Of a stretch of DNA of 64,000 nt, positions 32,101 to 55,202 are shown piece after piece. Every line of letters begins with the position of its first letter. The first letter of the stretch is position 1. The translations under genes and the position numbers were made by a program. Where the stretch lies: assembly GCF_013122565.1 (NCBI RefSeq), contig NZ_CP053258.1. One strand, given 5' to 3'. This stretch comes from Escherichia coli (GTDB taxonomy: Bacteria > Pseudomonadota > Gammaproteobacteria > Enterobacterales > Enterobacteriaceae). A model generated the notes under the pieces. It searched no databases. It saw nothing but the letters and a program-made list of their open reading frames with translations, and was not told where the DNA came from.

Positions 32101-32521
32101 GGGCGTTCATCGGGTAGATGATAATCGCTTTAACCCCGGCTTGTGACGCGCCCGCGCAGTGGTTGAGCAGCGGGAACATAAAGCATTCTGTTTTACCGGA
32201 GCCGGTACCGGTAGCGACCAGCGTCGGCTGTGGCGCGTCGCTTCCCAGACGCTGAAATGCCCGGGCCTGATGCGCGTGCGGCGGGAACGGCAGCGTCAGA
32301 TTAGGGAAGAAATTCAGCGGTAAGTCACTTTTACGAAACGGCAACTGGGCGGAAAGGTATGGTCCTTTCAGCAGCGTTTCGGGCTGGGCCAGAAATTGCT
32401 CCAGCATTGAGACATTATCGTTATTCTCACCGTTAAACAGCGGGCTGTTTAGCGGGAACGCCGCCCGTAAAAAGGCGGCAACGCTGTCGGCGACCTGCCG
32501 ACTGACAACGGACGGCAACAT
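26180..32521 (-). CDS. giant helicase with C-terminal Cys-rich Zn-ribbon region (DUF1998-like); fused DrmA/DrmB-like, DruE-like
   Basis: 2113 aa; Walker A GTGSGKTECF, DEAH-type motif II VVDELH, helicase C region (QRIGRAGRKDG), several CxxC pairs (CSHCN...CPKCG, CLGCG, CYRCVYAY); 1-nt stop/start overlap with the methyltransferase gene. Confidence 0.8.
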   Translation of the reverse strand: MLPSVVSRQVADSVAAFLRAAFPLNSPLFNGENNDNVSMLEQFLAQPETLLKGPYLSAQLPFRKSDLPLNFFPNLTLPFPPHAHQARAFQRLGSDAPQPTLVATGTGSGKTECFMFPLLNHCAGASQAGVKAIIIYPMNALATDQASRFAKTIASDPQLHGKVTVGLFVGDSEIEPSKKMSAEKVITCKHTLRESPPDILLTNYKMLDYLLMRPGDQPLWRYNQPGSLRYLVVDELHTFDGAQGSDLACLVRRLKHHIGVDNQRFACVGTSATVGDELGQLLDYAKTIFDQPFTDDAVIREDRYTAAEYLQDYAIAYSQYPGPEVASALDPQSYATPVAYLNGQIPLWFPDSDLQLPDDLESDDGREKRIALGSLLRRHSVMHVLLHDLQGGILSERECLENLQVMLAESADHARSVLQSILALIAQARLEVPETDHDRQKRLQAKKARPVLPFVQLRSQLWLREMRRLVASVAKTPRLVFADDVAVEDREHYLPVIHCRDCHATGWASLRHGQSVQLETDLDGIYRQFFEKGRSIVLAFPDNNEKAVSGAHQKLCPTCLKLNRQSSVQCGYCGHTELLQVLIPDMLKERKDELEFANECPYCNSKQGISILGSRAASLSAVMIHQLYGSQFNEHKKLITFSDSVQDAAHRASFFTARTWPLMIRGQIASVLGEKETLPLDAFAARVCQQTRERSPDDAHFAANFIAPNMQWLNDYQTLKNEGKLAENSDLPELVSLRLDWEVYSEFTLRARIGRTLEATGYAVAGVDKERFNPAITALHQQLCEELGDEMSGVSVEQVAHLALGVIWYQRQAGAVMHPAFESYRRDGTTFMMTQKERTSRYMPSIGPKTRKPAYASFEKINGFHRLIGAKSNPSWYQHWINRTLSNGNNLFISSVAETVLRRLFTALKIAGVVKDFDTKGREAWGLVPSALVVSRDVVQLNCSCCREVVRAPADQGWQWRNAPCLSLRCEGRYQEVDNMATWRWENMDIARVQGAEHTGLLSREDREATEKSFYRGNQPWNINLLSATPTLEMGIDVGDLSTVLLCSVPPAQANYLQRIGRAGRKDGNALNITVAEGNPHDQFFFEEPLEMMQGQVQAPGVFLNATAILERQLAAFCMDNWVKTGVPESAICKNVKQMLDELEFGRKSGFPYNLLRYIEQHHAEIAAQFTAIFPDLAAETRQQLLSYLQGAPGQRSLVQRIEEALKLLVEDRKSLRSRIDKLKRSIDKLENAPRDQNFDSDMRELTSERQALMALVNQINNKQTLNFLTDEGLLPNYAFPEAGITLRSVLWRRKEGGEAREYQNTTFEYERPASTALAELAPLNNFYAGGHKVEIEQIDLKVSEPENWRICSHCNYSENIDQTGDQHKYCPKCGTPGWADAGQKTTLLKLRQVYARASARDSQISDESDSREPAFFQRQLLVSFEKEDVSAAYAIEEGEVPFGFEFLSKVTLRDINFGKMADDANELMIAGEAKKRTGFKVCLGCGMVQRPRDHEPRHDLSCKYRTEPEKAKFEDYLYLYRQLESEALRILLPVSSYSNDRVVEASLGAAIQLGLKHYFKGNVDHLKGVVYREPENEGESWRQYLVIYDTVPGGTGSLKELMRTPDNLLKLLELAYQAIVECSCNNDTHKDGCYRCVYAYRDRGRMKYVSRDQARLLLAKILQARDSIRVIDSIKNISLEAMMGSELEKRFISCLQENKNLIVSRSYAHQGAGWIINTRSEPMMSWHLKAQVDLGAKEAVGIPCRPDYVLYPLMQSDAIKPVAIFLDGFAFHKNSVAEDVQKRQAIRDSGNFWVWTVTWADLKEPGLKHVQDVLGLGHNPDMKQPKFYNLFHDTNFAALEASFRERNSFALLLDYLADPGGRTQLWQRMAAAHAWVWLDVKKSQDAGTKQKYAYEMQENAPAWRLAELLPDEPFVFGGLLDSCNSSQQFIELASVLPQQAIKPTTSVAQMRSWLRLHICFDDRYTQDDGYEAGLNGFWRLVNLLQFLPDMTFTSRKAVHLPQESVDTKVSATPEAVPETDESWAEIIEFGLLSAEEIALLQSHSLSAPTLGYELQNDEGEIIAEADLAWPSQKWALIIDNQEFIPLFTTRGWHVAFGPIDENTLQHLSGGDK

Positions 32522-37437: not shown

Positions 37438-37439
37438 GA

Positions 37440-40521: not shown

Positions 40522-43500
40522 TTATCCAGCGATAACATAACTCCTAAGGTCATTACCCGGGGCAACAGCTCGCGATCGCGTGTTTGCCAGCCGTTCAACT
40601 TGCTGCGGTACTCGCAGAGCAAAATCAAATAAGGTGTCTTCAATACAGCGCCAGTAGCTAAGCCCCATGTCGAGCAGGACATAATGCTGACTGCCATCGC
40701 TGAAGGTGACTGTCAGTTCTCGTCCATGCTCCGTACTCTGGTTATCCCCCGTTAACCAGCTAATTGCTCCCGGCCACGCAGGCCCCAGATATCCTTCTTC
40801 AAGTAAAGTGGTCACAACCTGCTGACGATCTTCCTCATTAAGCCACGCGTTATAGAGAGCGTCGTGTTGGCGAGAGTTGTAATCCAATTTTTTGACGCAA
40901 ACAGTGAGGCTGGCGCGTTCCGCCATTCCCTGTTCAACCAGCTCGGTTAAGATTTCACCTAACAAACGCGCCGTGAATGGGCTATTAAGATAACGATCGC
41001 TGTACTCAACATGCGTTATCTCTTTGTGGCGGGTAAATGCCTGCTTCCAGCCAGCGTGCTGTTGCGTGACTAACGACCAGAAACGCGAACCAAAACCTTC
41101 CAGCGGCCCGTCCAGTTGTTCACAGAGATTGATGCGCACCGCCCCGGTGGGTAAGGCGGGCAGTAAATCTTCTGCACTTAAGGTCTGACCCGAGAAGGTT
41201 TTTCCGGACGTTCCTTTAAGTGTCACTACTGGTGAAGACGCACTTTGTCCCCATAATTCACCAGGGGCAACGGTAGCGCTGTCGTCTGCGGCCCACTGTT
41301 GGCTTTGCCCTTCGCGAGTCACCTGCGCAAGCCAGCGCCCCTTTCCTTGCATGAGTTGCGCAGTGGCAATGGATTTCACTTGTAAGCGTCCTCCCGGCAT
41401 CGCCGCCAACGCGGAAAGCTGATGTCTGGAGCTATCAGTTAAGTTTTCCAGCGGCGTGGCCACCAGCAACTCAACATTCCCACCGGAGGAAGCAAACTGG
41501 AGCAACTCTTTAAATAATGGCCATTGGGCAAAGTCCCACTGTTCCTGCGGCCCCGCAAGAACCAGCGAGCAGGAGTCATAAATCTCGCTGTTCAGGCATT
41601 GCGCAATACGTAAACTCAGAGGGTTAGTTTCAACCCGGCTACCATCGCCGAAGTACTGATATTCTGGCGCGAGGTTAAGTCGCTGCAACCGTACATTGGT
41701 AAGCAGGGTTAATGCATGGTGACGATCTAATCTGTTGACATAATGCTGACTGTCGTAGCTGAGCAAGCAGTGGTGACAGAATTTATCGCAACTGCAATCG
41801 AGCAATTTTCTGGCGTAATTAAAGACATCAGCCCAATGGTCGATCAATTGCACTGCATAACCTGCACCACCCGCATTATTGTCGTAAATGAAGATGGAAT
41901 ATCCGGTATAGCCATTGATATCGCGCGCTTGCTGCGTCGTCACGCCCAGCTCAGTATTTTCGATACCCAATTTATGCGCTAACCCTTCACGCAAAGCGAC
42001 CGCAAGGGAACGCGCGGCAACCTCATCACGGATCAACAGGCCATTATCATCATTGAGTTGCAGCTCAACCATATCTGTACGACTGCTATACCCCAACCAC
42101 AGATCTTTATGCACATGACCGTGGCACAATTTATTGCTCCCCTGACGATCGTTACTGCCCCCTCGCAACAGGTAATGCGTATTTTCCCGCTCTGGGTTCT
42201 TTAGATTTTCAGGGGTACGCTGGGGTTGAGTTTGAGATTCTGCCCGACCACATGAGAGGCAAATTGCGTAGCCGTGCCCAAATTCCCCTTCACTGAAGTG
42301 GAACAATTCCCCACTATGGCTAAAACGGTAACGTCCTAGCCCAGCATCGGGTAAAGAAACCCACACCGAAGACGGTACAAGAACACGTGGATCTTTCCAG
42401 GGAAGTTGTGCAGGCATGGATACATCATTATGTGCCTGATAACGAATATCTGTCGCAAAACCAACAGGCTGTAAATAACGCTTCACATCAAGTTGCTGTA
42501 TATCCGCTTTGCAGTGACTACATTCGACAGGACGGGTAGTACTGGTTGCCCCCGCACCACATTTACGGCAATGCCAGAACCACGGAATATGATGATCGCC
42601 TGACAGCTCCTGCCCGCTGGCAAGTACCTTGCCAAGCATAATGCCCGAGGAACGATATACTTTTCCGCCCAATACCACATCTGCACCAGGCGCATACTCG
42701 CGTAATGCTGTAGGTAGATCACGGCTGGGCAATTTTTCAATACGACGAGAAAAGCTTTCTCCCCCTTCATTAGGGTCAGCCTGAGTGGCTTTTATTGCGC
42801 GACGTTTTTCCAGCTCATCTGCCGTCAGATAATTGAAATTGACTACGCCAACCGGGAAACCATGCCCCGGCAGGAACGCTTCACTAATGAGTTTAGAAAA
42901 CAGATATGCACCGCGATAATCACGAAGCTGATAAGCGATGGCTTTACCTGCTGGCGTTTCTTCCCACGCGCTGTTATCCGCCTTCAACGCTTCGATATTT
43001 TCCAACAGTATCGCAAGTTGGCTTCTCCAGCGGATATCAACCTGCTGCATCATTGCTTGTGTGCGGGTCAAGAGCTGGGTTGCCGTCAATGACATCAGGA
43101 CGGTTCCCTGAGTAAGGCGTTTAAGTTTATCCGCCAGCTGATCGGCCTGGTGATTTAACCAATGGAGAAAACGAAGACACTGGCTCTCATCACCTTCAAA
43201 GAACCATTTGCAACTCAGTTTTGTCGCATCAGGAACTTCAGCTCGTAAAAACAGACCTAAAACCAGGGCATTAACATGTCGTTGAACAATGCTACTGCTC
43301 CCAAAACGAACCCGTGGCGCACTGGCAGTAGTGTTGAACGCCCAGAGGGGGTCTTTGAATACCTCCATTCCATGCGCCGTGTTTTTACATAACGTAATGG
43401 CAGCAGATGCACTCTCTCCACGACGCCCCGCGCGACCTGCACGTTGCAAATAATTTGCCGGCGCTGGAGGAACGTTGTTCATTGCCACCAAACTCATACC

Positions 43501-46500
43501 ACCAATATCCACCCCCATCTCCATGGTCGTGGAACAGTTCAGCACATTAACTTTGCCTGACTTAAATTGTTTTTCATTAAACTGGTTCTGCTCAGGCGTT
43601 CTCTGCGCAGAGTGTTCCTCCAGACGATACCAGCTATCTTTCAGGGCCAGTCGGTCGCTGCGAGTAGACCATAATCCTTCCTCGCGGGCATGTTGAATCA
43701 GCGCATTACTTTCCAGCCACTCCAGACGTTCTTCTCGGGCGATTTCTCCACCACCAGACAAACGCCAGTGACGTACAGGAAGCTCAGGCATTTCAATCAA
43801 CACTGCTTTTTCAGGTGCAATTTCTTTGCTACCCGGCAAATACGGAGAGTATCCCAGCAACGTGACGTCTAACGCACGTCGAGTATAGGGGCAACGCCAC
43901 ACTTGCTTTGGACTGTAAAATTCAGCTTGTTGTTTAATATCCAGCTGATAACCCGACTCAAACTGACGTAAGCAGGGTCGAATTGCATCCCAGACCTCAA
44001 TCATTAAGTGGTTAACTAACGATTTCCAGTGAGCCTGCTCAGGTTGTATTGCCGGAAAGACTGCGATTAATAGCTTAATGACCCGGTTATAATGGCGATC
44101 GCGTATTTGTGGCCAAAGTTGATCACGTTTCTGCCCTTTGTTTTTTTTATCTGGCCCCTGGAGCATTTTTACCGGGAAACGTGCCCCCATCCAGCGAGGG
44201 TATTGCTCGTTTTCGTAAAAAACGGCACTGTTTTCACGGATAAAGAAATCAAGAGTAATCTTCAATAAATTACGCCATTCCGCTAATTGCTTATCGGGAT
44301 CGGGTAATAATGTCTTCCAGTCCTGCGGGCAGGTTGTAACTTTATCAATAAATGGATAGTGAATGGCTACCAGACCCAGACTTTCGAGGGTCCAGGCATT
44401 TTTAGGGCGGCGACCAAACTCGCTGTATAAACAAAAATCTGCAAACTGTTGTTTAGTAAGATCAAGCCCAGACAATTCTTTAAAACTGCCTCTCATTCTA
44501 TCGGCAAGGTCCACACTGCCAACCAGCTGTTCAGACAGCGTTTGCCATGACATGGTTTTCTTCTGCTGATTGCCAGAGTTAGCCTGAAGTATTTGCATCG
44601 CTTCAGCATGATCCGGGCTTAAGGAACTCACCATCGGCTCAATAATTTTAAGTGCCTGAATGTCCGCCGGGCTAAGCTCCTCATTCGCAGCCATCGCTTT
44701 TTTCAGCGCGTCGATGGAATTTTTTAAAGGGAGGACAGAAAACTGGCTAATAACTTTCTCTAACAGTGCACAGTGTGCCGGGCTGAGTTTTGCTGAAGGC
44801 TCTGTAATATTTGCCAGCTCCTGGTAACAAAGAGCTCGCAACGTCGCTTTATCGGCATCCTGCTGTAAGCGAGCTGAAATGCGAGCGGTACCCTGACGCG
44901 AATCCGTAAAGGTGAGCAAGCGTCGACCATTAAACGGTCCTAACTGCTCTTCTCTTGTTTGCGGTAATGGAGAAAACTCCAGCAGAGTAGGAATAATTTC
45001 ATTTAAAAAAAAGGGCGCGCCGAGCCGAAGCGGACGGAATAAAGGATTATTTTTCCGTTGAGTGTCACCACAGCACACACAAGCAAAGGAGTTATTGCGT
45101 CCCTCACCTCGAGATTCCGGTCTTAACAGGTTTATTTCATAGTGCTTTTGCGCTTCACTATCAATTTTCCCCGCCGTCGTTTCTTCCAGTGAAATGATAT
45201 ATTTTTCACCATCGCTCGCAATCAGACGATCAAATTGAGAGTTATTGTCTAATTCGTCGTTGTCTTCATCTTCAGAATAAACATCTACATCAAGAGCAAA
45301 CTCATCCACTTCGGCAGCGGCGGGTTGCGCTACCAACCAGTTCGTTCCATCACCGCGCATCTCCTCTTTGGCAGACAAATAAGCTGAACCACACCCGGAG
45401 CAACGTAAAACTTCAAATACCGGCGCACCACAGTCACAATATTGGCGCTGCTCAAACCATACCTGACCAAATGGCCAGTCACTCTGATTTAATTCATGTG
45501 CTTTATGTGAGCATTGTTTGTTTGAACATGCCCATAGACCCGCCAGTGTTCTGATAAACCCATGCATACGTAATGGCGTAAAAGCCAGTTCACCTTCTCG
45601 CGATCTTGCCATTAGATCGAGGAGTTGCAGTAGCTCACGGTGATTAATATCTGGCCAGGTTCTTCTGGCAACATTGAGCAACTCACTCAAACGTACTGCC
45701 TGCCGTCCGGGATGAGTTAACGCCTGACGCAATTGCTGGGCCACACGGTAATGACAAAGCTGTTGGTAAAGATCCTGAGGGCTCAGGGATTTAAGAGAAG
45801 TTAAAGATGTGGGGTATTCATGACGAATCAGCGACTCCGATACCCGCGGTATTTGTCGATAACCGCGAACCACTTTGACATCACGTTCTGTAACGCCCGC
45901 GAGATCAGCGACAAATTTAGCAAGCTCCTTATTACCTTCAGGAGAGTCTTCACCAATAGTGGCAGAGGTCGCGATAATCTGCACAGGTTTATCTGTGCCG
46001 GGTCCAACATTGAAAGCCTGCATAACACGACGTAAAAGCAGCGCTAACTCAGCAGCCTGAGAACCAATATAACTATGGGCTTCATCCAGGACGATATACT
46101 TTAACATCCCCTGAGACTTTTCGATGATTGGGGCATCTTTACGACGAATCAGCATATATTCCAGCATGGTGGTATTCGTCACCATGATGGAAGGTGGTGC
46201 TTCATAAATGGCTTCCCGACTCAAAGCTTGTTCAGGTACTTTCAACTGATCTTCCTGAATTTCGTATTTGGTATGCCGGGTTTCGCCATTATATAGCGCG
46301 AAGCGTATTTTCCCCTTAAATCCGCGCGTCCATTCGCGAAGCCGCTCCTGTTGGCTGTTAATTAATGCATTTAACGGATACAAGAAAATAGCTTGTGTCC
46401 CTGTTAGTGACTGGCGGGTCGATTTTTGCTGACGAATAAGATCTTCCAGAACAGGTACCATAAAGCATTCTGTTTTCCCGGATCCCGTACCGCTGCTCAC

Positions 46501-46845
46501 TAACAAGGATTTTTTGTCTTCCAGAATCGTTCGCCACGCAGTGAGTTGATGACGAAATGGCACTGGCGCTTTGCTCAATGCATCAACCAGCGGGCTGGAG
46601 ATCAGCTTGTCCCGCAAATCCTCCATTGTTTCATCCGCAGGCATCCAGCCGAATGTACTTTCGAATACCGGGTCTGCAAGCAGTGACCCCTCCTGACCGG
46701 GAGGCTGAAAATATTGTGATTCCAGATAATGAGTCAACGACTTGCTCCGCAATGCCAACTGACTTACCACCGACCTCACCGCACGCTGATGAAGCTGATT
46801 TAGAAGTGGCGCATAATGCAGTTGCTGAACGTCCATCAATGACAT
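40522..46845 (-). CDS. druE: Druantia DruE: giant helicase with Zn-ribbon/DUF1998-like region
   Basis: 2107 aa; Walker A GTGSGKTECF, DEAH motif VLDEAH, helicase C region QRAGRAGRRGE, CxxC clusters; paralogous to the 2113-aa protein at 26180..32521. Confidence 0.8.
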   Translation of the reverse strand: MSLMDVQQLHYAPLLNQLHQRAVRSVVSQLALRSKSLTHYLESQYFQPPGQEGSLLADPVFESTFGWMPADETMEDLRDKLISSPLVDALSKAPVPFRHQLTAWRTILEDKKSLLVSSGTGSGKTECFMVPVLEDLIRQQKSTRQSLTGTQAIFLYPLNALINSQQERLREWTRGFKGKIRFALYNGETRHTKYEIQEDQLKVPEQALSREAIYEAPPSIMVTNTTMLEYMLIRRKDAPIIEKSQGMLKYIVLDEAHSYIGSQAAELALLLRRVMQAFNVGPGTDKPVQIIATSATIGEDSPEGNKELAKFVADLAGVTERDVKVVRGYRQIPRVSESLIRHEYPTSLTSLKSLSPQDLYQQLCHYRVAQQLRQALTHPGRQAVRLSELLNVARRTWPDINHRELLQLLDLMARSREGELAFTPLRMHGFIRTLAGLWACSNKQCSHKAHELNQSDWPFGQVWFEQRQYCDCGAPVFEVLRCSGCGSAYLSAKEEMRGDGTNWLVAQPAAAEVDEFALDVDVYSEDEDNDELDNNSQFDRLIASDGEKYIISLEETTAGKIDSEAQKHYEINLLRPESRGEGRNNSFACVCCGDTQRKNNPLFRPLRLGAPFFLNEIIPTLLEFSPLPQTREEQLGPFNGRRLLTFTDSRQGTARISARLQQDADKATLRALCYQELANITEPSAKLSPAHCALLEKVISQFSVLPLKNSIDALKKAMAANEELSPADIQALKIIEPMVSSLSPDHAEAMQILQANSGNQQKKTMSWQTLSEQLVGSVDLADRMRGSFKELSGLDLTKQQFADFCLYSEFGRRPKNAWTLESLGLVAIHYPFIDKVTTCPQDWKTLLPDPDKQLAEWRNLLKITLDFFIRENSAVFYENEQYPRWMGARFPVKMLQGPDKKNKGQKRDQLWPQIRDRHYNRVIKLLIAVFPAIQPEQAHWKSLVNHLMIEVWDAIRPCLRQFESGYQLDIKQQAEFYSPKQVWRCPYTRRALDVTLLGYSPYLPGSKEIAPEKAVLIEMPELPVRHWRLSGGGEIAREERLEWLESNALIQHAREEGLWSTRSDRLALKDSWYRLEEHSAQRTPEQNQFNEKQFKSGKVNVLNCSTTMEMGVDIGGMSLVAMNNVPPAPANYLQRAGRAGRRGESASAAITLCKNTAHGMEVFKDPLWAFNTTASAPRVRFGSSSIVQRHVNALVLGLFLRAEVPDATKLSCKWFFEGDESQCLRFLHWLNHQADQLADKLKRLTQGTVLMSLTATQLLTRTQAMMQQVDIRWRSQLAILLENIEALKADNSAWEETPAGKAIAYQLRDYRGAYLFSKLISEAFLPGHGFPVGVVNFNYLTADELEKRRAIKATQADPNEGGESFSRRIEKLPSRDLPTALREYAPGADVVLGGKVYRSSGIMLGKVLASGQELSGDHHIPWFWHCRKCGAGATSTTRPVECSHCKADIQQLDVKRYLQPVGFATDIRYQAHNDVSMPAQLPWKDPRVLVPSSVWVSLPDAGLGRYRFSHSGELFHFSEGEFGHGYAICLSCGRAESQTQPQRTPENLKNPERENTHYLLRGGSNDRQGSNKLCHGHVHKDLWLGYSSRTDMVELQLNDDNGLLIRDEVAARSLAVALREGLAHKLGIENTELGVTTQQARDINGYTGYSIFIYDNNAGGAGYAVQLIDHWADVFNYARKLLDCSCDKFCHHCLLSYDSQHYVNRLDRHHALTLLTNVRLQRLNLAPEYQYFGDGSRVETNPLSLRIAQCLNSEIYDSCSLVLAGPQEQWDFAQWPLFKELLQFASSGGNVELLVATPLENLTDSSRHQLSALAAMPGGRLQVKSIATAQLMQGKGRWLAQVTREGQSQQWAADDSATVAPGELWGQSASSPVVTLKGTSGKTFSGQTLSAEDLLPALPTGAVRINLCEQLDGPLEGFGSRFWSLVTQQHAGWKQAFTRHKEITHVEYSDRYLNSPFTARLLGEILTELVEQGMAERASLTVCVKKLDYNSRQHDALYNAWLNEEDRQQVVTTLLEEGYLGPAWPGAISWLTGDNQSTEHGRELTVTFSDGSQHYVLLDMGLSYWRCIEDTLFDFALRVPQQVERLANTRSRAVAPGNDLRSYVIAG

Positions 46846-49800
46846 ACTCCTGCTTGTTCAAAATAATATTGATAGATTACCCCTAATTGCTGTGGGGCTT
46901 GCTGATAGTGAAATTCAAAAAGCGCAGACAGTTGATGTATCAGGTTATTATCTTTTTGGGTTAACAGCGCTGCGACTAACATCAAATTAAAACGTTTTTC
47001 AAGCCGTGAGTGATATTTATCTTCAATCCAAAGCTTATTAAAAACAGATTTTAACTCTGGAGTAATAGCACTGGACCAAAGTTCTTTAGGGAAGATACTG
47101 ATACGCCCAAAGCTGTCGGGGTTCCTTAATAGCATCTGTTTAGCTTCATTAAACTGCTCACGACTAACAGTTGGCAATACATCACAACCGGTTGGTAGGC
47201 TCTCACTATATGTAAGTAACATATTCGCAATGGGAGCCAGCCGACGATCGATATGTGCACGATGGTTCATAAAAGCAATAAAGGGTCGCAATATATGTAA
47301 TGCTAATGTTTTATCGTTAATCTGTTTTTCCAGATAAGTCCAACATTTTTGGAAAACATCTTTCCAGATTGAAACGGGAATCCATCCCCATGAAAAGGGT
47401 AATTCTTCCTGTATATCATAAATCGTATCGCTATCACCAGAAAGACATGATGATATTAACAATTGAACAACCACGCGGTAATTACTCGAAATACATCTGA
47501 ACAAGTCCAGATCCAGCAAGGATAAGCCATTATTCATTTTGTATTTCTTAATATACTCTGTTAATAAACAGCAATAATTTTGCAATGGGTTGTTATCTAT
47601 TTCAAAAATTAGCTCATTAAAATTTTTTTTGCGCTGTTCTGGGTCTGCTTCGCATAGAGCATTTAGTAATAAATCATTTGTCTGTAATACAGGTAGCATC
47701 CATTTAATTACTGGTGCAATGCGAGCTGTACCATCCAGTTTTCCCACAATTAACCATGGACTATCCTGAACATTCAGAGCTGAAAGATCATAAGCAAACT
47801 CATCTTTTTTTAACAATGATATGTGTAAGCCAGGATTCTTAAGAGAAATAGCATCAACAACCAGTTCGTCTATTCTATTTGCAGGAAAAACAACAGAATT
47901 TTTTATATCAACCAGTAACCCTTGATCGTGTTCAATAAAACTACCATCGTAGCGTTTAATATTGAGTGTTGCTTTATCCTTTCCAAATCTGTCAGAGTAA
48001 AAATCAACACATAATGTACTATTGCTGTTCCATGCACATGCCAGCATAGCATTTAGCAAATTATAGTTCTCATAAAGTGAAATTTGTTGTAATTTGTCAT
48101 TGCGTCCTGATAAAAGAGGAAGGTCGGCATGTAAATAACGGAATTTTTCAGCTACTGGATTTTCATCGAATAACTCGATATTAAGATATCCTCTTCCAGC
48201 ACATGATATGGTTAATAACTCAGCATCTATTCCATGCAAATGTGCTATAGATGCCACACCATCAAAATGAACAGAACCATCATTAGTTACAAATCGGCCA
48301 CCGCTAACCGGCTTAGGTAATAATAGTTTAAGATTAGAACCATCTTTCCAGGAGACCCGTAAATCAACGGTATTTTCCAGCATCTGCGATGAATTATAAT
48401 AAATAGCACACTCGTTTTGTGAATAATCGGACTTAAGTGTTACTTTTTCATTGTTTGAATATTTATCAATTCTAGTATCCGTTATACCAGAAAGTATAAT
48501 AATGCCTTGCTGAGCACTCTCAGGTATAATATTAATATCGAAGTCTGCTGGTAAAACTACAACTTTACCGCTAAATAAAACCTCATCATTAACTATTCGC
48601 CGGACTTCTATCTGTCCTTTTGGCATTTCTGATGCGACAGAATACCAGGCATTGTTACCTGAACGAATGGAACGCCAAAAAAGTTCTTTCTCCGGTACAA
48701 TGCCATATTGTAGATCCTTTTTCCAACCGATCTTCGGCCAGGCTCGATGGACAGGATAATCCGATTTAACCAGTTCAACTTCTGTCGATTTAATATAATA
48801 TTCAATTGCAGAATCATAAAGTTGCTGGGTGCGAATTGTACAAACAGCACCATCATGTAAAACAACGCTAAATACTCCACTTATTTTAGTTAAGCTGCGT
48901 TCACTGTTTTTCAGCAACCTTGGGATATCAAACTCACCTTCTCCACTAATATCTAAATGGCTATTTTTCGGTAGCGAAATAAACAGAGCATTTAGCCTGG
49001 AACTCACAGACCCCATACCAACAAGTTTTAGCTGCGATTCACTCTCATTCATCGCTTCAAAAACCCAGGGAAGTTCTTCAGTAAGTTCATAACCGCCTTT
49101 TGGAATTGTGTGACCTAACAGAATTGGACCTTCATGAAGCGACAATGAGATTTCGGCCATTGCATCTGCACCAGAGAGTTTTTGCATCGCAATAGGTAAT
49201 AACTCGACCCGCCAATCTTGCTGCTCATAACGGCTTAGCATTGCCAACCTTGCCCCGCCATTTTTCCATTTTCCTGAAATGATGAGTCGGGTCTGCTCCG
49301 GCTGAATATGGCATTCAAACAAAGAGGTTAACTGTTCTGTACGCATTGTGGCCGGGAATCGGAACCGGGCATCGCAATACCAACTGTCATCAACATCGAC
49401 CCAGATTCTTTCAACCTGAAGACTACTTGCACTGCGTATTTCAGAAGATTGAGAAAGTAATCGCCTTACAATCTCTGCAGCATTCGCTTCGGGGAGAACG
49501 AGTGGAAGTTGAAGATGCCAGTCTGGAGAGAGCTTACGTAATGCAGAAACGGGATCACTGCTTTGAGGAGGATGCTCACTAAGTAATCGGCAGAGAGTCT
49601 CGCAGAATTCACCGGCTATTTCATAGACCAGTTCGTTTTGCATTGTGACAGGAATCGTATCGCCTAATTCTTGTGCAATTTTAGCGGCAGGATATTGAGA
49701 TGATTGCCCACGAAGCGCCTGATATATCCTTCTGAAATAGGTAATCAAATAACCGCTCTCATTTTCAATCATGCGGATAGGTAAACCACCTTCACAAGCC

Positions 49801-50195
49801 AGTGTATGCAGATAACCCGAAGCTTGCCCCAGGTTTCTTATCTTTCTTTTCCAGTAGCGAATGCCATCATTAACCAGCTTCTGTCGATGAACATACGGAA
49901 CTTTCCAGTTAATAGAATCTAAAATTGTGTCCCATTTAGGGTGTCCGACCGTATGAGTTCGGCGGATAAACTCTGCGGCATATATGCTAAATAGAACATC
50001 GCTATAGGAAATGAATATCGTTCTTGGATAACTACGGGGGGCATATGTACGCAGTAGTTCTGCCAAACTTTCGTACTCTGTATCAGTACAACGGTAAGCA
50101 TATAACGCCCGTCCATCAGCTCCGGATAATGAACGGCGACTAAAAAACATGTTAAGCCATTGCAAAAGTGGGTTAACTGGAGTTTTCACAAGCAA
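46836..50195 (-). CDS. druH: Druantia type III DruH-like protein (no recognisable catalytic motif)
   Basis: 1119-aa AT-rich ORF immediately upstream of druE with 10-nt overlap; TTG start preceded by AAGGAAGG; assignment is by size and position. Confidence 0.6.
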   Translation of the reverse strand: MLVKTPVNPLLQWLNMFFSRRSLSGADGRALYAYRCTDTEYESLAELLRTYAPRSYPRTIFISYSDVLFSIYAAEFIRRTHTVGHPKWDTILDSINWKVPYVHRQKLVNDGIRYWKRKIRNLGQASGYLHTLACEGGLPIRMIENESGYLITYFRRIYQALRGQSSQYPAAKIAQELGDTIPVTMQNELVYEIAGEFCETLCRLLSEHPPQSSDPVSALRKLSPDWHLQLPLVLPEANAAEIVRRLLSQSSEIRSASSLQVERIWVDVDDSWYCDARFRFPATMRTEQLTSLFECHIQPEQTRLIISGKWKNGGARLAMLSRYEQQDWRVELLPIAMQKLSGADAMAEISLSLHEGPILLGHTIPKGGYELTEELPWVFEAMNESESQLKLVGMGSVSSRLNALFISLPKNSHLDISGEGEFDIPRLLKNSERSLTKISGVFSVVLHDGAVCTIRTQQLYDSAIEYYIKSTEVELVKSDYPVHRAWPKIGWKKDLQYGIVPEKELFWRSIRSGNNAWYSVASEMPKGQIEVRRIVNDEVLFSGKVVVLPADFDINIIPESAQQGIIILSGITDTRIDKYSNNEKVTLKSDYSQNECAIYYNSSQMLENTVDLRVSWKDGSNLKLLLPKPVSGGRFVTNDGSVHFDGVASIAHLHGIDAELLTISCAGRGYLNIELFDENPVAEKFRYLHADLPLLSGRNDKLQQISLYENYNLLNAMLACAWNSNSTLCVDFYSDRFGKDKATLNIKRYDGSFIEHDQGLLVDIKNSVVFPANRIDELVVDAISLKNPGLHISLLKKDEFAYDLSALNVQDSPWLIVGKLDGTARIAPVIKWMLPVLQTNDLLLNALCEADPEQRKKNFNELIFEIDNNPLQNYCCLLTEYIKKYKMNNGLSLLDLDLFRCISSNYRVVVQLLISSCLSGDSDTIYDIQEELPFSWGWIPVSIWKDVFQKCWTYLEKQINDKTLALHILRPFIAFMNHRAHIDRRLAPIANMLLTYSESLPTGCDVLPTVSREQFNEAKQMLLRNPDSFGRISIFPKELWSSAITPELKSVFNKLWIEDKYHSRLEKRFNLMLVAALLTQKDNNLIHQLSALFEFHYQQAPQQLGVIYQYYFEQAGVCH

Positions 50196-50406
50196 CCTGC
50201 CTTCCTTTGATACAATTCGTAACAGGTTACTATCATCATAAAAAAGCTCAACCCGATGAACTCGCTAAAAATGAGACAAATCATTTATATCTCGAAAAAA
50301 CTTGTTACAATCATGAGCGCTACACCGAACTTAACCATATAAATTATGTGTGTTTTGTTTATTTTTTAAACGATTACAACTATCCATTATTTACACAGGT
50401 ATCAAA

Positions 50407-52059
50407 ATGTTAGCGCAGCTTTTTGAGCAGTTGTTTCAATCGATAGACTCTACACTGATCACCAATATTTTCATCTGGGCTGTTATATTCGTATTTTTAT
50501 CAGCGTGGTGGTGTGACAAAAAAAATATACATAGTAAGTTTAGAGAATATGCTCCAACCTTAATGGGGGCATTAGGTATTCTGGGTACTTTCATTGGTAT
50601 TATTATTGGTTTACTCAATTTTAATACCGAAAGTATTGATACCAGCATCCCCGTATTATTAGGTGGCCTAAAAACAGCATTCATTACAAGCATTGTAGGT
50701 ATGTTTTTTGCCATTTTATTTAATGGAATGGATGCTTTCTTTTTTGCCAATAAACGAAGTGCGTTAGCAGAAAATAACCCTGAATCTGTTACACCTGAAC
50801 ATATCTATCATGAATTAAAAGAGCAGAACCAGACTCTGACTAAATTAGTCTCGGGTGTTAACGGTGATAGTGAAGGTTCTCTTATTGCTCAAATAAAATT
50901 ACTACGTACTGAGATTAGCGATTCTTCGCAGGCACAATTAGCTAATCACACTCATTTCAGTAATAAGCTTTGGGAACAACTTGAACAATTTGCAGATCTA
51001 ATGGCAAAAGGTGCTACAGAACAAATTATTGATGCTTTGCGACAAGTTATTATTGATTTTAATGAAAATTTAACTGAACAGTTTGGTGAAAACTTTAAAG
51101 CACTTGATGCCTCTGTAAAAAAACTTGTTGAGTGGCAGGGAAATTATAAAACGCAAGTTGAGCAGATGTCAGAACAGTATCAACAAAGTGTCGAGTCCCT
51201 GGTTGAAACAAAAACTGCGGTTGCAGGGATTTGGGAAGAATGTAAAGAAATTCCTCTGGCTATGTCTGAACTGCGTGAAGTGCTTCAGGTGAACCAACAT
51301 CAAATCAGCGAACTCTCCCGCCATTTAGAAACCTTTGTCGCCATCCGCGATAAAGCAACAACCGTATTACCTGAAATACAGAACAAAATGGCTGAAGTGG
51401 GTGAACTGCTGAAATCCGGAGCTGCAAATGTTAGTGCATCTCTTGAGCAAACCAGCCAGCAAATACTTCTTAATGCAGATTCAATGCGCGTGGCCCTGGA
51501 TGAAGGTACCGAAGGATTCAGACAATCGGTTACCCAAACACAACAAGCATTTGCCTCGATGGCACATGATGTCAGCAATTCCTCCGAAACCCTAACCAGC
51601 ACGTTAGGTGAAACAATTACTGAAATGAAACAAAGTGGTGAAGAATTCCTGAAATCACTAGAGTCGCACTCGAAAGAATTGCATAGAAATATGGAACAAA
51701 ATACTACGAATGTGATTGATATGTTCAGTAAGACTGGTGAAAAGATTAACCATCAACTATCCAGTAATGCCGATAATATGTTTGATTCAATCCAGACATC
51801 ATTTGATAAGGCAAGTGCAGGGTTGACTTCTCAAGTCAGAGAATCAATTGAAAAATTTGCTCTATCCATCAACGAGCAGTTACATGCTTTTGAGCAAGCA
51901 ACTGAACGTGAAATGAACCGTGAAATGCAATCATTAGGTAATGCTCTGCTTTCAATCAGCAAAGGTTTTGTCGGTAACTATGAAAAACTTATTAAAGATT
52001 ACCAAATAGTTATGGGGCAGTTACAAGCATTAATTTCTGCTAATAAACATCGCGGGTAA
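50407..52059 (+). CDS. zorA: Zorya ZorA: MotA/ExbB/TolQ-like channel with long coiled-coil tail
   Basis: ORF 50350..52059; preferred start ATG at 50407 (MLAQLFEQ); N-terminal TM helices, then about 400 aa of E/Q/L-rich predicted coiled coil. Confidence 0.8.
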   Translation: MLAQLFEQLFQSIDSTLITNIFIWAVIFVFLSAWWCDKKNIHSKFREYAPTLMGALGILGTFIGIIIGLLNFNTESIDTSIPVLLGGLKTAFITSIVGMFFAILFNGMDAFFFANKRSALAENNPESVTPEHIYHELKEQNQTLTKLVSGVNGDSEGSLIAQIKLLRTEISDSSQAQLANHTHFSNKLWEQLEQFADLMAKGATEQIIDALRQVIIDFNENLTEQFGENFKALDASVKKLVEWQGNYKTQVEQMSEQYQQSVESLVETKTAVAGIWEECKEIPLAMSELREVLQVNQHQISELSRHLETFVAIRDKATTVLPEIQNKMAEVGELLKSGAANVSASLEQTSQQILLNADSMRVALDEGTEGFRQSVTQTQQAFASMAHDVSNSSETLTSTLGETITEMKQSGEEFLKSLESHSKELHRNMEQNTTNVIDMFSKTGEKINHQLSSNADNMFDSIQTSFDKASAGLTSQVRESIEKFALSINEQLHAFEQATEREMNREMQSLGNALLSISKGFVGNYEKLIKDYQIVMGQLQALISANKHRG

Positions 52060-52065
52060 TCGATC

Positions 52066-52773
52066 ATGGATAAGATTATAGGGAAACAATTACCTAAAAA
52101 AGATCAAGATAATGAACATTGGGTATCCATGTCAGACCTAATGGCAGGGCTGATGATGGTTTTTATGTTCATATCTATTGCTTATATGCACTACGTACGT
52201 ATTGAAAAAGAAAAAATTAAAGAAGTTGCCGTAGCCTACGAGAATGCTCAGTTACAGCTTTATAATGCTCTGGATATTGAGTTTGCAAAGGATTTACAAG
52301 ACTGGGATGCAGAGATCGATAAACAGACTCTGGAGGTTCGATTTAAATCACCGGATGTTTTATTTGGCTTAGGAAGCACAGAGCTAAAACCAAAGTTTAA
52401 ACTCATTCTTGACGACTTTTTTCCTCGCTACCTAAAAGTTCTAGATAATTATCAGGAACATATTACTGAAGTCCGCATTGAAGGTCACACAAGTACTGAC
52501 TGGACAGGAACAACGAATCCTGATATTGCTTATTTTAATAATATGGCACTATCACAAGGTCGTACACGTGCAGTATTACAATACGTTTATGACATAAAAA
52601 ATATCGCGACACACCAACAATGGGTTAAAAGTAAATTTGCCGCAGTAGGTTATTCATCTGCACATCCCATTCTTGATAAAACCGGCAAGGAGGATCCTAA
52701 TCGCTCTCGTCGTGTCACCTTCAAAGTTGTAACAAATGCCGAGTTGCAGATTAGAAAGATTATTCAGGAGTAA
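52066..52773 (+). CDS. zorB: Zorya ZorB: MotB/OmpA-like peptidoglycan-binding partner
   Basis: 235 aa; single N-terminal TM (LMAGLMMVFMFISIAYM), C-terminal OmpA-like domain (NMALSQGRTRAVLQYV); starts 6 nt after zorA. Confidence 0.8.
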   Translation: MDKIIGKQLPKKDQDNEHWVSMSDLMAGLMMVFMFISIAYMHYVRIEKEKIKEVAVAYENAQLQLYNALDIEFAKDLQDWDAEIDKQTLEVRFKSPDVLFGLGSTELKPKFKLILDDFFPRYLKVLDNYQEHITEVRIEGHTSTDWTGTTNPDIAYFNNMALSQGRTRAVLQYVYDIKNIATHQQWVKSKFAAVGYSSAHPILDKTGKEDPNRSRRVTFKVVTNAELQIRKIIQE

Positions 52774-52776
52774 GAG

Positions 52777-53880
52777 ATGAAATTATCTATCGACATTTCA
52801 GAACTTATTCAATTAGGGAAGAAAATGTTACCAGAAGGAGTCGATTTTTTTCTGGATGAATCCCCTATTGACTTTGATCCTATAGATATTGAGTTATCAA
52901 CGGGTAAAGAAGTTAGTATCGAAGATCTTGACCCTGGTAGCGGGCTTATCTCTTATCATGGCCGCCAGGTTCTTTTATATATTCGGGACCATTCAGGGCG
53001 TTATGATGCGGCTATCGTAGATGGCGAAAAAGGAAAACGTTTTCATATTGCCTGGTGCAGAACTCTTGATGAAATGCGCCATAAAAATCGATTTGAAAGG
53101 TATCATGCAACTAACCGCATAGATGGTTTATTCGAAATTGATGATGGTTCAGGTCGGAGCCAGGATGTTGATTTACGGGTATGTATGAATTGCCTCGAAC
53201 GGCTTAATTATAAAGGAAGTATTGATAAACAAAGAAAAAGAGAGATTTTTAAATCATTCTCATTAAATGAGTTTTTTTCAGATTATAGTACCTGTTTTCG
53301 TCATATGCCTAAGGGTATCTATGACAAAACAAATAGTGGGTATGTCGAAAACTGGAAGGAAATATCTAAAGAAATACGAGAAAAGGCAAATTATGTTTGT
53401 AATGATTGTGGCGTGAATTTATCAACCGCCAAAAACTTGTGCCATGTCCATCATAAAAATGGCATCAAATATGATAATCACCATGAAAACCTTCTTGTTC
53501 TGTGCAAGGATTGCCATCGAAAACAGCCCCTCCACGAAGGTATATTCGTTACCCAAGCAGAGATGGCTATCATTCAACGTTTACGTTCCCAACAAGGGTT
53601 ATTAAAAGCAGAATCCTGGAATGAAATATATGACCTGACTGATCCATCAGTGCATGGTGATATTAATATGATGCAACATAAAGGCTTTCAACCTCCTGTT
53701 CCTGGGTTAGATCTTCAAAACTCAGAACATGAAATTATTGCAACCGTAGAAGCTGCATGGCCAGGCCTTAAAATTGCAGTTAACCTTACTCCCGCCGAAG
53801 TCGAAGGATGGAGAATATATACCGTGGGTGAGCTGGTTAAAGAAATACAAACCGGAGCCTTTACGCCAGCAAAATTGTAA
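52777..53880 (+). CDS. zorE: Zorya type II ZorE: HNH endonuclease domain protein
   Basis: 367 aa; HNH-type Cys/His motif CNDCGVNLSTAKNLCHVHHKNG...NHHENLLVLCKDCH; 3 nt after zorB. Confidence 0.8.
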   Translation: MKLSIDISELIQLGKKMLPEGVDFFLDESPIDFDPIDIELSTGKEVSIEDLDPGSGLISYHGRQVLLYIRDHSGRYDAAIVDGEKGKRFHIAWCRTLDEMRHKNRFERYHATNRIDGLFEIDDGSGRSQDVDLRVCMNCLERLNYKGSIDKQRKREIFKSFSLNEFFSDYSTCFRHMPKGIYDKTNSGYVENWKEISKEIREKANYVCNDCGVNLSTAKNLCHVHHKNGIKYDNHHENLLVLCKDCHRKQPLHEGIFVTQAEMAIIQRLRSQQGLLKAESWNEIYDLTDPSVHGDINMMQHKGFQPPVPGLDLQNSEHEIIATVEAAWPGLKIAVNLTPAEVEGWRIYTVGELVKEIQTGAFTPAKL

Positions 53881-53891
53881 ATTCTAAAACT

Positions 53892-53915
53892 CCGTGAAAG
53901 TTAAGACTTTCACGG
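53892..53915 (+). terminator. stem-loop after zorE
   Basis: ccgtgaaagt / actttcacgg 10-bp inverted repeat with 4-nt loop, 11 nt after the stop; following tract is A-rich not U-rich. Confidence 0.4.
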
Positions 53916-54090
53916 AAGATAAATAAAATTATTCTGATTTGTGACTCAAATTACAAAAGTAGTTAATGGCATAACTTGTCTTGTTTTTATGGTATAACAG
54001 GTATAAAGGTATATGCTATGGTTCGCCTCATACTTAAAACTTCCCTCATACGGGTGAAGGTTAAAGCTTGGTAGACAGGAGACAGTCACA

Positions 54091-55197: not shown

Positions 55198-55202
55198 CGC
55201 TT

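What the first reader, a model, noticed from the sequence alone, without database searches (positions are those of the whole stretch)
50196..53915. Zorya type II (zorA-zorB-zorE) divergent from druH across a 211-bp shared control region
A MotA-like membrane protein with a ~400-aa coiled-coil tail, a MotB/OmpA-like protein and an HNH endonuclease follow each other with 6-nt and 3-nt spacers. The interval 50196-50406 must hold divergent promoters for druH and zorA; coordinated or competitive regulation of two defence systems from one short region is worth testing. The zorA start is ambiguous (50350 without SD versus 50407 with weak SD).
Basis: partly seen in the sequence, partly recalled or inferred. 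Interest (0 to 1): 0.6.

Follow-up and report, generated by a model that had tools for sequence, protein, structure and literature searches.

The report
Known Zorya II beside Druantia III
This is an intact copy of the already published and routinely annotated Zorya type II anti-phage system (zorA-zorB-zorE), lying head-to-head with Druantia III as in E. coli O157:H7, and only how the short DNA between the two is regulated remains untested.

Summary
zorA2 (50407-52059), zorB2 (52066-52773) and zorE (52777-53880) each exceed NCBI's curated equivalog cut-offs. They lie divergent from druH (46836-50195, minus strand) across 211 bp.

The start ambiguity is resolved in favour of ATG 50407. The finding's end coordinate (53915) falls at the foot of a hairpin (53891-53916), not at the zorE stop.

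The locus is not new. The same array (ARMADA II, Druantia III, Zorya II) is O-island 172 of E. coli EDL933 and occurs in about 530 of 5426 complete E. coli genomes. PGAP already names the three genes, and a 2025 preprint states that zorABE is divergently transcribed from druHE. ZorE nickase activity, ZorA5B2 structures and Zorya-Druantia synergy are published.

Only the regulatory idea is open. Comparison across six loci from five genera supports two separate back-to-back promoters rather than one shared switch:
- The zorA promoter block travels with zorABE into loci that lack druH.
- An IS903-like element sits between the two blocks in a Serratia strain, with both operons intact.
- Published synergy worked with the two systems on separate plasmids.

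Seen in passing: in 13 of 66 distant loci zorABE is followed directly by armC-armD (10 also with armB upstream), and ZorE shares a C-terminal module with ArmC.

Interest is low.

The parts
46836..50195 (-). druH (Druantia type III; 1119 aa, TTG start), divergent neighbour of zorA
   Evidence: PADLOC DruH3 PDLC00041, 2550 bits. NCBIfam NF038336 STY4851/ECs_5259 family, 983 bits against a cut-off of 150. PGAP annotates the same boundaries in EDL933.
40522..46845 (-). druE (Druantia type III YprA-family helicase-nuclease, 2107 aa)
   Evidence: PADLOC DruE3 PDLC00037, 2182 bits.
50196..50406 (.). 211-bp AT-rich (about 31% GC) intergenic region between druH and zorA
   Evidence: Sequence read directly; composition profile. 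No Rfam family matches. Identical in many O157:H7 genomes; the druH-zorA junction is present whole in 509 complete E. coli genomes.
50200..50207 (-). Shine-Dalgarno sequence of druH (AAGGAAGG on the minus strand)
   Evidence: Read from the sequence; inference.
50224..50251 (-). Candidate druH promoter: -35 TTGAGC (50251-50246), 16-bp spacer, -10 TAACCT (50229-50224). Inferred, weak consensus.
   Evidence: The block 50216-50251 is conserved in Escherichia, Enterobacter, Yersinia, Serratia PL17 and a Pantoea remnant. It lies on the druH side of the IS insertion in Serratia PL17. It was not picked up by the consensus scan.
50272..50283 (.). Conserved dyad TGA-N6-TCA, directly upstream of and abutting the zorA -35 element. 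Candidate operator of unknown factor.
   Evidence: TGA and TCATTTAT are conserved in six loci from five genera. The repeat finder I7. Any function is inferred only.
50284..50311 (+). Candidate zorA promoter: -35 TTTATA (50284-50289), 16-bp spacer ending in TG at 50303-50304 (extended -10), -10 TACAAT (50306-50311). Predicted transcription start near 50317.
   Evidence: Consensus scan hit with TG. These are the strongest conservation peaks of the intergenic region (5.0-5.2 of 6 sequences). The block is also present upstream of zorA in S. fonticola, where druH is absent.
50207..50236 (+). Second promoter-like match on the + strand (TTGATA, 18 bp, TATCAT; 10 of 12). It overlaps the candidate druH promoter and 5' UTR.
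   Evidence: Conserved in Enterobacter but not in Yersinia or Serratia. TTGATACAAT also repeats at 50302-50311.
50397..50399 (+). Weak Shine-Dalgarno (AGG) 7 nt before the zorA ATG
   Evidence: ACACAGG is conserved across related loci.
50407..52059 (+). zorA2: 550 aa, with an N-terminal MotA/ExbB-type channel domain and a helical tail of about 420 aa
   Evidence: NCBIfam NF041792, 1140 bits against a cut-off of 700, aligned 1-550 of 550. PADLOC PDLC00638, 2e-302. Pfam MotA_ExbB over residues 51-110. PDB 8VVI chain F, E = 1e-37, five chains in the entry.
52066..52773 (+). zorB2: 235 aa, with a MotB-like transmembrane helix (WVSMSD, Asp24) and an OmpA-like peptidoglycan-binding domain
   Evidence: NCBIfam NF041787, 444 bits against a cut-off of 400. 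Pfam OmpA over residues 99-213. PDB 8VVI chain A, E = 1.5e-52, with the SD(L/M)M motif aligned.
52777..53880 (+). zorE: 367 aa. N-terminal Zn-binding domain (H90/C94/C136/C139); HNH nuclease core (C208-x2-C211, H225-H226, N234, N238, C243-x2-C246-H247, H253); C-terminal Vsr/PD-(D/E)xK-like module (about residues 275-350).
53891..53916 (+). Hairpin after zorE (11-bp stem, loop UAAG). Likely transcript end or stabiliser, although no U-tract follows on the + strand.
   Evidence: dG -16 kcal/mol, z = -4.35; sequence. Not reported by the terminator scan because the T-run is missing.
24069..40298 (-). ARMADA type II armA-armB-armC-armD, downstream of druHE on the same strand. Completes the published three-system array.
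   Evidence: PADLOC: DrmD/BrxHII-like helicase, type IIG/DrmMI-like methyltransferase, DruE-like YprA helicase, GajB-like UvrD helicase. The EDL933 locus has the same order. Named ARMADA II in 10.1101/2025.09.15.676423 and 10.1101/2025.09.22.677730.

Best explanation
The region is an intact Zorya type II defence operon (zorA2-zorB2-zorE). It sits head-to-head with Druantia type III (druH-druE), which is followed by ARMADA type II. This is the same three-system array as O-island 172 of E. coli O157:H7 EDL933.

How it works, taken from published work on near-identical E. coli systems and not tested here:
- ZorA and ZorB form a 5:2 inner-membrane, ion-driven motor anchored to peptidoglycan by ZorB. 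The long cytoplasmic ZorA tail transmits an infection signal.
- ZorE, an HNH nickase, is recruited to the membrane on infection and nicks DNA.
- Synergy with Druantia III occurs at the level of DNA intermediates and RecBCD.

Expression, inferred here:
- The three genes are one operon. Spacers are 6 and 3 nt, and the zorE Shine-Dalgarno sequence lies inside the end of zorB.
- The operon is transcribed from its own extended -10 promoter (TGtTACAAT, 50303-50311), about 90 nt before ATG 50407, and ends near the hairpin at 53891-53916.
- druHE is transcribed from a separate, weaker promoter within about 55 bp of its start codon.
- The two promoters are back-to-back with starts about 100 bp apart, not one shared switch.
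For: Identity:
- All three proteins exceed NCBIfam equivalog cut-offs and match PADLOC ZorA2/ZorB2/ZorE2 models over their full length.
- The region is 99.4% identical to the EDL933 locus that PGAP annotates zorA2/zorB2/zorE.
- Solved ZorA5B2 type II relatives match at E = 1e-37 and 1e-52.
- ZorE keeps all 12 residues whose mutation was tested in PMC13192584. C208, C211, H225, H226, N238, C243 and C246 are invariant in 42 homologues.
- The AF2 model (pLDDT 90) is closest to the HNH nucleases EcoKMcrA, GVE2 HNH and the Cas9 HNH domain.

Mechanism:
- PMC11890865 covers the 5:2 complex, the requirement for PG binding, tail and ion flow, the ZorE nickase activity and its recruitment to the membrane.
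- PMC13192584 and 10.1101/2022.08.21.504612 cover the synergy.

Promoters:
- Conservation peaks fall at 50275-50289 and 50300-50311 in six loci from five genera.
- The same block lies upstream of zorA in S. fonticola, where HipBA replaces druH.
- The IS903-like insertion in Serratia PL17 lies exactly between the druH-side and zorA-side blocks, and both operons are intact.
- Each system works alone when cloned with its own native promoter (PMC11890865; 10.64898/2026.05.13.724758; 10.64898/2026.05.12.722862).
Against: - No transcription start site data could be obtained. The EDL933 Cappable-seq tables held are cut before 5.41 Mb.
- Promoter-like matches in the region are no more frequent than in shuffled sequence (15 against 14.2 +/- 4.0), so the promoter calls rest on conservation alone.
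- The candidate druH promoter has only a 3 of 6 match at -10 and was not found by the scan.
- A stronger + strand match (50207-50236, 10 of 12) overlaps the druH-side promoter in Escherichia and Enterobacter, so some promoter competition cannot be excluded.
- The hairpin after zorE lacks a U-tract.
- Activity of this particular copy was not tested.
Confidence: 0.9

Rival explanations
1. Shared operator model. A single regulator binds the conserved dyad TGA-N6-TCA (50272-50283) between the two promoters and controls druHE and zorABE together. The dyad centre (50277.5) would lie about 40 bp from the predicted zorA start and about 60 bp from the predicted druH start. These are the spacings used by activators of the CRP family (established knowledge of class II and class I promoters).
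For: - The dyad and the adjoining TCATTTAT are the best-conserved non-coding positions.
- Its position relative to both predicted starts fits.
- The region is AT-rich.
- The two systems co-occur and synergise (PMC13192584; 10.1101/2025.09.22.677730).
Against: - The dyad matches only the inner 3 nt of each CRP half-site and lacks the G/C at consensus positions 5 and 18 (read from the sequence).
- It stays with zorA in S. fonticola, where druH is absent.
- It lies on the zorA side of the IS insertion in Serratia PL17, where 1054 bp separate it from druH.
- Synergy does not need cis linkage (PMC13192584).
- No regulator gene is present in the array.
Confidence: 0.15
2. Promoter competition or interference model. 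Overlapping promoters on opposite strands compete for RNA polymerase, so expression of one operon lowers the other. The + strand candidates are TTGATA-18-TATCAT at 50207-50236 and the zorA promoter at 50284-50311. The - strand candidates are 50251-50224, or the scan hits at 50370-50343 and 50413-50386.
For: - The scan finds + and - strand matches that overlap.
- The 10-nt repeat TTGATACAAT / TTGTTACAAT lies 95 bp apart.
- The + strand match at 50207-50236 is kept in Enterobacter.
Against: - The 50207-50236 match and the - strand matches at 50343-50413 are not conserved in Yersinia or Serratia.
- The number of matches equals the chance expectation.
- Both proteins of Druantia are present at hundreds of copies per cell from the native promoter (10.64898/2026.05.12.722862), and natively expressed Zorya II protects (PMC11890865).
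Confidence: 0.1
3. zorA starts at GTG 50350, giving a 569-aa protein with 19 extra N-terminal residues.
For: The frame is open from 50350.
Against: - There is no Shine-Dalgarno sequence before 50350.
- The family models begin at the ATG product's residue 1.
- Listed homologues are mostly 548-550 aa and none is 569 aa.
- 5 of 8 related loci have no in-frame upstream start, and the upstream stretch has indels that are not multiples of three.
- PGAP uses the ATG.
Confidence: 0.02

Closest known systems
Zorya type II of E. coli ATCC 8739 / ECOR19 / O157:H7 EDL933 (zorA2-zorB2-zorE; z5894-z5896 on O-island 172)
   Same: Same three genes, same order and spacers, and the same divergent druH neighbour. 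The junction 50000-50600 is 100% identical to that of many O157:H7 genomes. The region is 99.4% identical in DNA over 3.85 kb. All experimentally probed ZorE residues are identical.
   Different: No complete E. coli genome in the collection matches the 3.85-kb region at more than 99.4%. The flank beyond zorE (nanM, nanS and onward) is only 97.7% identical to E. coli. The window holds no tRNA gene, and the array lies between uxuA and nanM, whereas in EDL933 it lies in an island next to tRNA-Leu.
Sulfuricurvum kujiense ZorA5B2 type II complex (PDB 8VVI; PMC11890865)
   Same: Homologous ZorA (E = 1e-37) and ZorB (E = 1.5e-52). The entry holds five ZorA chains and two ZorB chains. The transmembrane Asp motif and the OmpA-like domain align.
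   Different: A distant species. The deposited ZorA chain is shorter (378 aa against 550 aa here). No ZorE is present in the solved complex.
Zorya type I (ZorABCD; PDB 8QYD-series ZorA chains)
   Same: A MotA/MotB-like ZorAB core. ZorA1 and ZorB1 models and ZorA structures match weakly.
   Different: The effectors are ZorC and ZorD instead of ZorE. ZorA1 models score only 32-49 bits against 1002 for ZorA2. This locus is not a member of type I.
Flagellar stator MotAB and the ExbBD / TolQR 5:2 motors
   Same: Pfam MotA_ExbB channel domain in ZorA. MotB-like transmembrane Asp and OmpA-like peptidoglycan-binding domain in ZorB.
   Different: ZorA carries a helical cytoplasmic tail of about 420 aa, and the operon includes a nuclease. 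NCBIfam MotB/MotS models score far below their cut-offs.

Membership tests
Zorya type II | ZorA2 protein: MotA/ExbB-type channel domain plus a long helical tail | tested here: met
   NCBIfam NF041792 equivalog, 1140 bits against a cut-off of 700, over the full length. PADLOC ZorA2, 2e-302. Pfam MotA_ExbB, E = 1.6e-6. PDB 8VVI, E = 1e-37.
Zorya type II | ZorB2 protein: MotB-like transmembrane helix with a conserved Asp, and an OmpA-like peptidoglycan-binding domain | tested here: met
   NF041787, 444 bits against a cut-off of 400. Pfam OmpA. WVSMSDLM aligns with WISLSDMM of 8VVI ZorB.
Zorya type II | ZorE effector with an intact HNH nuclease motif | tested here: met
Zorya type II | Gene order zorA-zorB-zorE, co-directional and tightly spaced | tested here: met
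   Spacers of 6 and 3 nt. The same order is found in the 76 fetched loci where all three genes were detected; the other four are cut by contig ends.
Zorya type II | 5:2 ZorA:ZorB assembly, dependence on ion flow, ZorE nicking activity, protection against phage | not testable with these tools
   Shown for the E. coli ATCC 8739 system and for S. kujiense ZorAB in PMC11890865. This copy was not assayed.
Druantia type III (neighbour) | DruH together with a DruE YprA-family helicase, co-directional | tested here: met
   PADLOC DruH3 (2550 bits) and DruE3 (2182 bits). NCBIfam YjiT_fam.
ARMADA type II (second neighbour) | armA (BrxHII-like helicase), armB (PglX-like methyltransferase), armC (YprA-like helicase), armD (GajB-like helicase) in strict order | tested here: met
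   PADLOC best hits per gene fit these classes, and the order is contiguous at 24069-40298. The definition is taken from 10.1101/2025.09.15.676423. The PADLOC version used has no ARMADA models, so this rests on domain classes and on synteny with EDL933.
Zorya type I / type III | ZorC and ZorD (type I), or ZorF and ZorG (type III), following zorAB | tested here: not met
   The gene after zorB is ZorE. The next genes are nanM and nanS.

The most novel reading that the evidence does not exclude
Zorya II of this clade may be an accessory arm of YprA-helicase defence systems rather than a free-standing system.

- In 13 of 66 evaluable loci from distant Gamma- and Betaproteobacteria, a full-length ArmC homologue starts directly after zorE on the same strand (44-500 bp after it in 11 loci), followed where sequence allows by armD.
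- In 10 of those loci armB (and, where the flank reaches, armA) lies upstream on the same strand. The layout is armA-armB-[variable cargo]-zorA-zorB-zorE-armC-armD.
- ZorE, ArmC and, in three loci, a DUF262-type (HEC-05-like) protein all end in the same Vsr-like module of about 80 aa.
- That shared module could be the device that couples the effectors, either through a common partner or by acting on a common DNA substrate.
- On this reading the E. coli array (ARMADA, Druantia, inverted Zorya) would be a rearranged version of that older unit.
- The papers held describe the E. coli array and call the ARMADA II gene order 'strict'. I found no mention of the nested form in their text.
Probability: 0.25. 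Interest if true: 0.55.

Novelty: already known. Interest (0 to 1): 0.15.

Why it matters
As found, it matters little. The system, its divergent placement next to druHE, its mechanism outline and its synergy with Druantia III are published, and NCBI's pipeline names the genes automatically.

Two things would be worth a specialist's time:

1. No transcription start or regulator has been mapped for the druH-zorA intergenic region in the papers I could search. The conserved extended -10 block and the TGA-N6-TCA dyad give precise targets for reporter mutagenesis.

2. The nested armAB-zorABE-armCD arrangement and the C-terminal module shared by ZorE and ArmC suggest that Zorya II's link to YprA-helicase systems is older and tighter than simple co-occurrence in E. 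coli islands. This bears on the open question of how co-located defence systems cooperate.

Tried and rejected
- Experimental transcription start sites. The supplementary Cappable-seq tables of PMC10469882 (EDL933) were searched for coordinates 54125xx-54127xx and for gene names. The stored files are cut before 5.41 Mb, so nothing was found.
- Known RNA element in the zorA leader or the intergenic region. Rfam at E <= 1 found nothing. The predicted 5' UTR folds no better than shuffles (z = -1.98), and its sequence is poorly conserved with indels. Rejected.
- Footprinting within E. coli. It is uninformative because the junction is at least 99% identical in 514 genomes.
- Pfam on ZorE found no significant family (HNH_3 at E = 0.08). 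The HNH assignment therefore rests on NCBIfam and PADLOC models, motif conservation and the fold comparison.
- Sequence search of solved structures with ZorE found no meaningful hit.
- GTG 50350 as the zorA start: rejected (see the observation check).
- The hairpin as a canonical intrinsic terminator: not supported, because no U-tract follows on the + strand.
- H-NS silencing. It was considered because of the low GC content. The only published datum found is that deleting hns lowers Druantia's contribution to defence (10.64898/2026.05.13.724758), which does not test transcription. Left open.


Full report
**What is there**

The ORF map shows three co-directional genes on the + strand:
- a gene at 50350/50407-52059;
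- a gene at 52066-52773 (235 aa);
- a gene at 52777-53880 (367 aa).

Upstream on the minus strand lie an 1119-aa ORF (46836-50195) and a 2107-aa ORF (40522-46845).

**Identity**

The three proteins match defence-system models over their full length.
- Against PADLOC they match ZorA2 (2e-302), ZorB2 (2e-104) and ZorE2 (8e-177). The two upstream proteins match DruH3 and DruE3.
- Against NCBIfam all three exceed the curated equivalog cut-offs: ZorA2 1140 bits (cut-off 700), ZorB2 444 (400), ZorE 696 (600).
- Pfam finds the MotA/ExbB channel domain in ZorA (residues 51-110), helical apolipoprotein-like repeats in its tail, and an OmpA domain in ZorB.
- The solved type II ZorA5B2 complex of Sulfuricurvum kujiense (PDB 8VVI, five ZorA and two ZorB chains) matches at E = 1e-37 and 1.5e-52. 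The ZorB transmembrane motif WVSMSDLM aligns with its counterpart.

**ZorE**

- Pfam's HNH models do not reach significance, and no solved structure matches by sequence.
- A 42-sequence alignment of ZorE from the fetched loci shows C208, C211, H225, H226, N238, C243 and C246 invariant. N234, H247 and H253 are nearly so. A second invariant set, H90/C94/C136/C139, lies in the N-terminal domain.
- All twelve residues whose mutation was tested in ECOR19 ZorE (H90, E99, Y109, Y189, H226, K231, N234, H235, N238, L239, H247, H253; PMC13192584) are present at the same positions here.

**Start and end**

ATG 50407 is the zorA start.
- The family models align from residue 1 of the 550-aa product.
- Most of the listed homologues are 548-550 aa, a few gene calls are 557 aa, and none is 569 aa.
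- Five of eight related loci have no in-frame start upstream of the conserved ATG.
- PGAP uses this ATG.
- In E. coli strains that carry Zorya II without Druantia, similarity to the window begins only about 20 nt before it.

zorE stops at 53880. The finding's end coordinate, 53915, falls at the 3' foot of a strong hairpin (predicted at 53891-53916, dG -16 kcal/mol, z = -4.35). No U-tract follows it on the + strand.

**It is already known**

- The 3.85-kb region is 99.4% identical to O-island 172 of E. coli O157:H7 EDL933, where RefSeq already names zorA2, zorB2 and zorE.
- It is present nearly complete in 529 of 5426 complete E. coli genomes. The druH-zorA junction is present whole in 509.
[quoted passage not shown] - The window carries the whole array: armABCD lies at 24069-40298 on the minus strand.
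- PMC11890865 shows the 5:2 ZorAB complexes, the need for peptidoglycan binding, tail and ion flow, ZorE nickase activity and its infection-dependent recruitment to the membrane.
- 10.1101/2022.08.21.504612 and PMC13192584 show and dissect the synergy with Druantia III.

**The intergenic region**

This is the only part of the finding not covered by the papers I could search. None of the papers queried for the word 'intergenic' (the two Zorya-Druantia papers and the two Druantia structure papers) contains it, and none of those queried for promoter terms maps a promoter.

Consensus scanning is uninformative by itself: 15 promoter-like matches against 14.2 +/- 4.0 in shuffles. I therefore used comparison with related loci.
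- A scan of one genome per species with a ZorA2 profile gave 80 loci. Look-ups of specific homologues gave five more.
- The divergent druH-zorA junction, 211-216 bp long, recurs in Escherichia sp. E1V33, Enterobacter and Yersinia proxima. It recurs in Serratia sp. PL17 with a 1279-bp gap.
- Alignments show two conserved zorA-proximal peaks. One is TGA-N6-TCATTTAT (50272-50289). The other is TTGnTACAAT (50302-50311), which reads as an extended -10 promoter with -35 TTTATA and a predicted start near 50317. The Shine-Dalgarno region is also conserved.
- The same block lies upstream of zorA in Serratia fonticola, where hipBA replaces druH. It is also present in a Pantoea locus where tblastn finds no DruH but the druH-proximal intergenic sequence is still recognisable.
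- A separate druH-proximal block (50216-51) reads on the minus strand as TTGAGC, 16 bp, TAACCT. This is a weak promoter that would start about 22 nt before the TTG start codon.
- In Serratia sp. PL17 a 1054-bp IS903-like element lies exactly between the two blocks, at a position equivalent to window 50270/50271. It has inverted ends GGCTTTGTTGAATAA and a 9-bp target duplication (CCTTCAAGA / CCTTCACGA). druH (1119 aa) and zorA (550 aa) are both intact there.

Published results point the same way.
- Each system works alone when cloned with its own native promoter.
- Synergy was seen with the two systems on separate pBAD plasmids.

Together these favour two independent back-to-back promoters. This is inference; no start site has been mapped.

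A competing + strand match (50207-50236, 10 of 12) overlaps the druH-side promoter in Escherichia and Enterobacter. The conserved dyad could be an operator. Neither competition nor a common regulator is therefore excluded.

**Other contexts of the same operon**

- In E. coli STEC316 and E500002, zorABE (85-99% protein identity) sits beside a type VI secretion remnant with no druH and an unrelated upstream region.
- A 71-bp scrap of window 50182-50252 lies between IS remnants on plasmid pCUPF09A.

**Seen beyond the window**

- In 13 of 66 loci with enough downstream sequence, a full-length ArmC homologue (37-52% identity) follows zorE on the same strand, starting 44-500 bp after it in 11 of them and 2.1 and 4.8 kb after it in the other two. 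Where sequence allows, ArmD follows.
- In 11 of 55 loci with enough upstream sequence, ArmB lies upstream on the same strand. ArmA precedes it where the flank reaches.
- Ten loci show both sides. The layout is armA-armB-[1.0-5.8 kb variable gap]-zorA-zorB-zorE-armC-armD.
- The taxa include Pseudomonas jinjuensis, Aliidiomarina, Giesbergeria, Thalassolituus, Halomonas, Aidingimonas and Enterovibrio.
- The gap holds HEC-05/HEC-06 (DUF262-type) genes in four loci.
- The C-terminal module of ZorE (about residues 279-335) is homologous to the extreme C-terminus of the window's own ArmC. BLASTP gives 40% identity and E = 8e-8. The PADLOC ZorE2 profile positions 282-357 match ArmC residues 2020-2095. 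It also matches the C-terminus of the HEC-05-like proteins.
- PMC13192584 reports this ZorE extension as an unassigned nuclease-like region enriched in Druantia-associated ZorE.
- 10.1101/2025.09.15.676423 assigns Vsr-type domains to the ArmC C-terminus and calls the ARMADA II gene order strict.
- I found neither the ZorE-ArmC homology nor the nested arrangement in the text of the held papers.

**Verdict**

The regulatory hypothesis is testable but not favoured by the comparative evidence. Interest is low.

Noticed in passing
L009, L019, L020, L021, L031, L033, L042, L043, L046, L047, L053, L073, L080 (and L026); for example L021 554-21718: zorABE is followed directly by armC-armD in 13 of 66 evaluable distant loci, and armA-armB lie upstream on the same strand in 10 of them. 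The layout is armA-armB-[1.0-5.8 kb variable gap]-zorA-zorB-zorE-armC-armD, all co-directional. armC starts 44-500 bp after zorE in 11 loci, and 2.1 and 4.8 kb after it in L047 and L033. In L026 armB ends 42 bp before zorA, but the contig ends before armC could be seen. The held papers call the ARMADA II order 'strict' and describe only the E. coli side-by-side array.
   Followed up: partly
window 53611-53781 (ZorE residues 279-335) and window 26294-26461, minus strand (ArmC residues 2021-2076); also L042 about 9676-9852: The C-terminal module of ZorE is homologous to the extreme C-terminus of ArmC in the same array (40% identity, E = 8e-8). It is also homologous to the C-terminus of an HEC-05-like DUF262 protein in nested loci. 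Fold matches are to Vsr/PD-(D/E)xK nucleases at low Z (4-5). One small module therefore sits on up to three different effectors of one gene cluster.
   Followed up: partly
L006 8797-9850 (Serratia sp. PL17): A 1054-bp IS903-like element (inverted ends GGCTTTGTTGAATAA, 9-bp target duplication) is inserted in the druH-zorA intergenic region, exactly between the two conserved promoter blocks. Both operons are intact. It is a natural 'split' of the control region.
   Followed up: yes
L002 (E. coli STEC316) 8669-12489; L003 (E. coli E500002) 8716-12490: A second E. coli context for Zorya II, beside type VI secretion remnants, without Druantia or ARMADA. Similarity to the window starts only about 20 nt before the zorA ATG, so the module boundary lies just upstream of the ribosome-binding site.
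   Followed up: partly
window 50182-50252; L004 4001-4071 (plasmid pCUPF09A): A 71-bp scrap covering the druH start and the first 57 bp of the intergenic region survives at 97% identity between IS5 and IS110 remnants on an E. coli plasmid. It is probably a deletion scar of the array.
   Followed up: partly
window 16226-22914 and 54091-56242: The defence array lies between uxuR-uxuB-uxuA and nanM-nanS, and the window holds no tRNA gene. From my own knowledge of the K-12 map, nanC, the fim operon and gntP lie between these genes, so they appear to be replaced here. The flank after zorE is only 97.7% identical to any complete E. coli genome, which suggests a non-coli Escherichia or a divergent lineage.
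   Followed up: partly
window 7637-12877 and 2909-5071: A 1746-aa inverse-autotransporter adhesin matches the IatC N-terminal model at 1127 bits, below its cut-off of 2400. A 720-aa pentapeptide-repeat protein lies upstream of it. Neither is related to the finding.
   Followed up: no
window 53891-53916: A strong hairpin lies after zorE with no U-tract on the + strand. On the minus strand it is followed by AGTTTTAG. It could act as a transcript-end stabiliser or a weak bidirectional terminator before nanM.
   Followed up: partly
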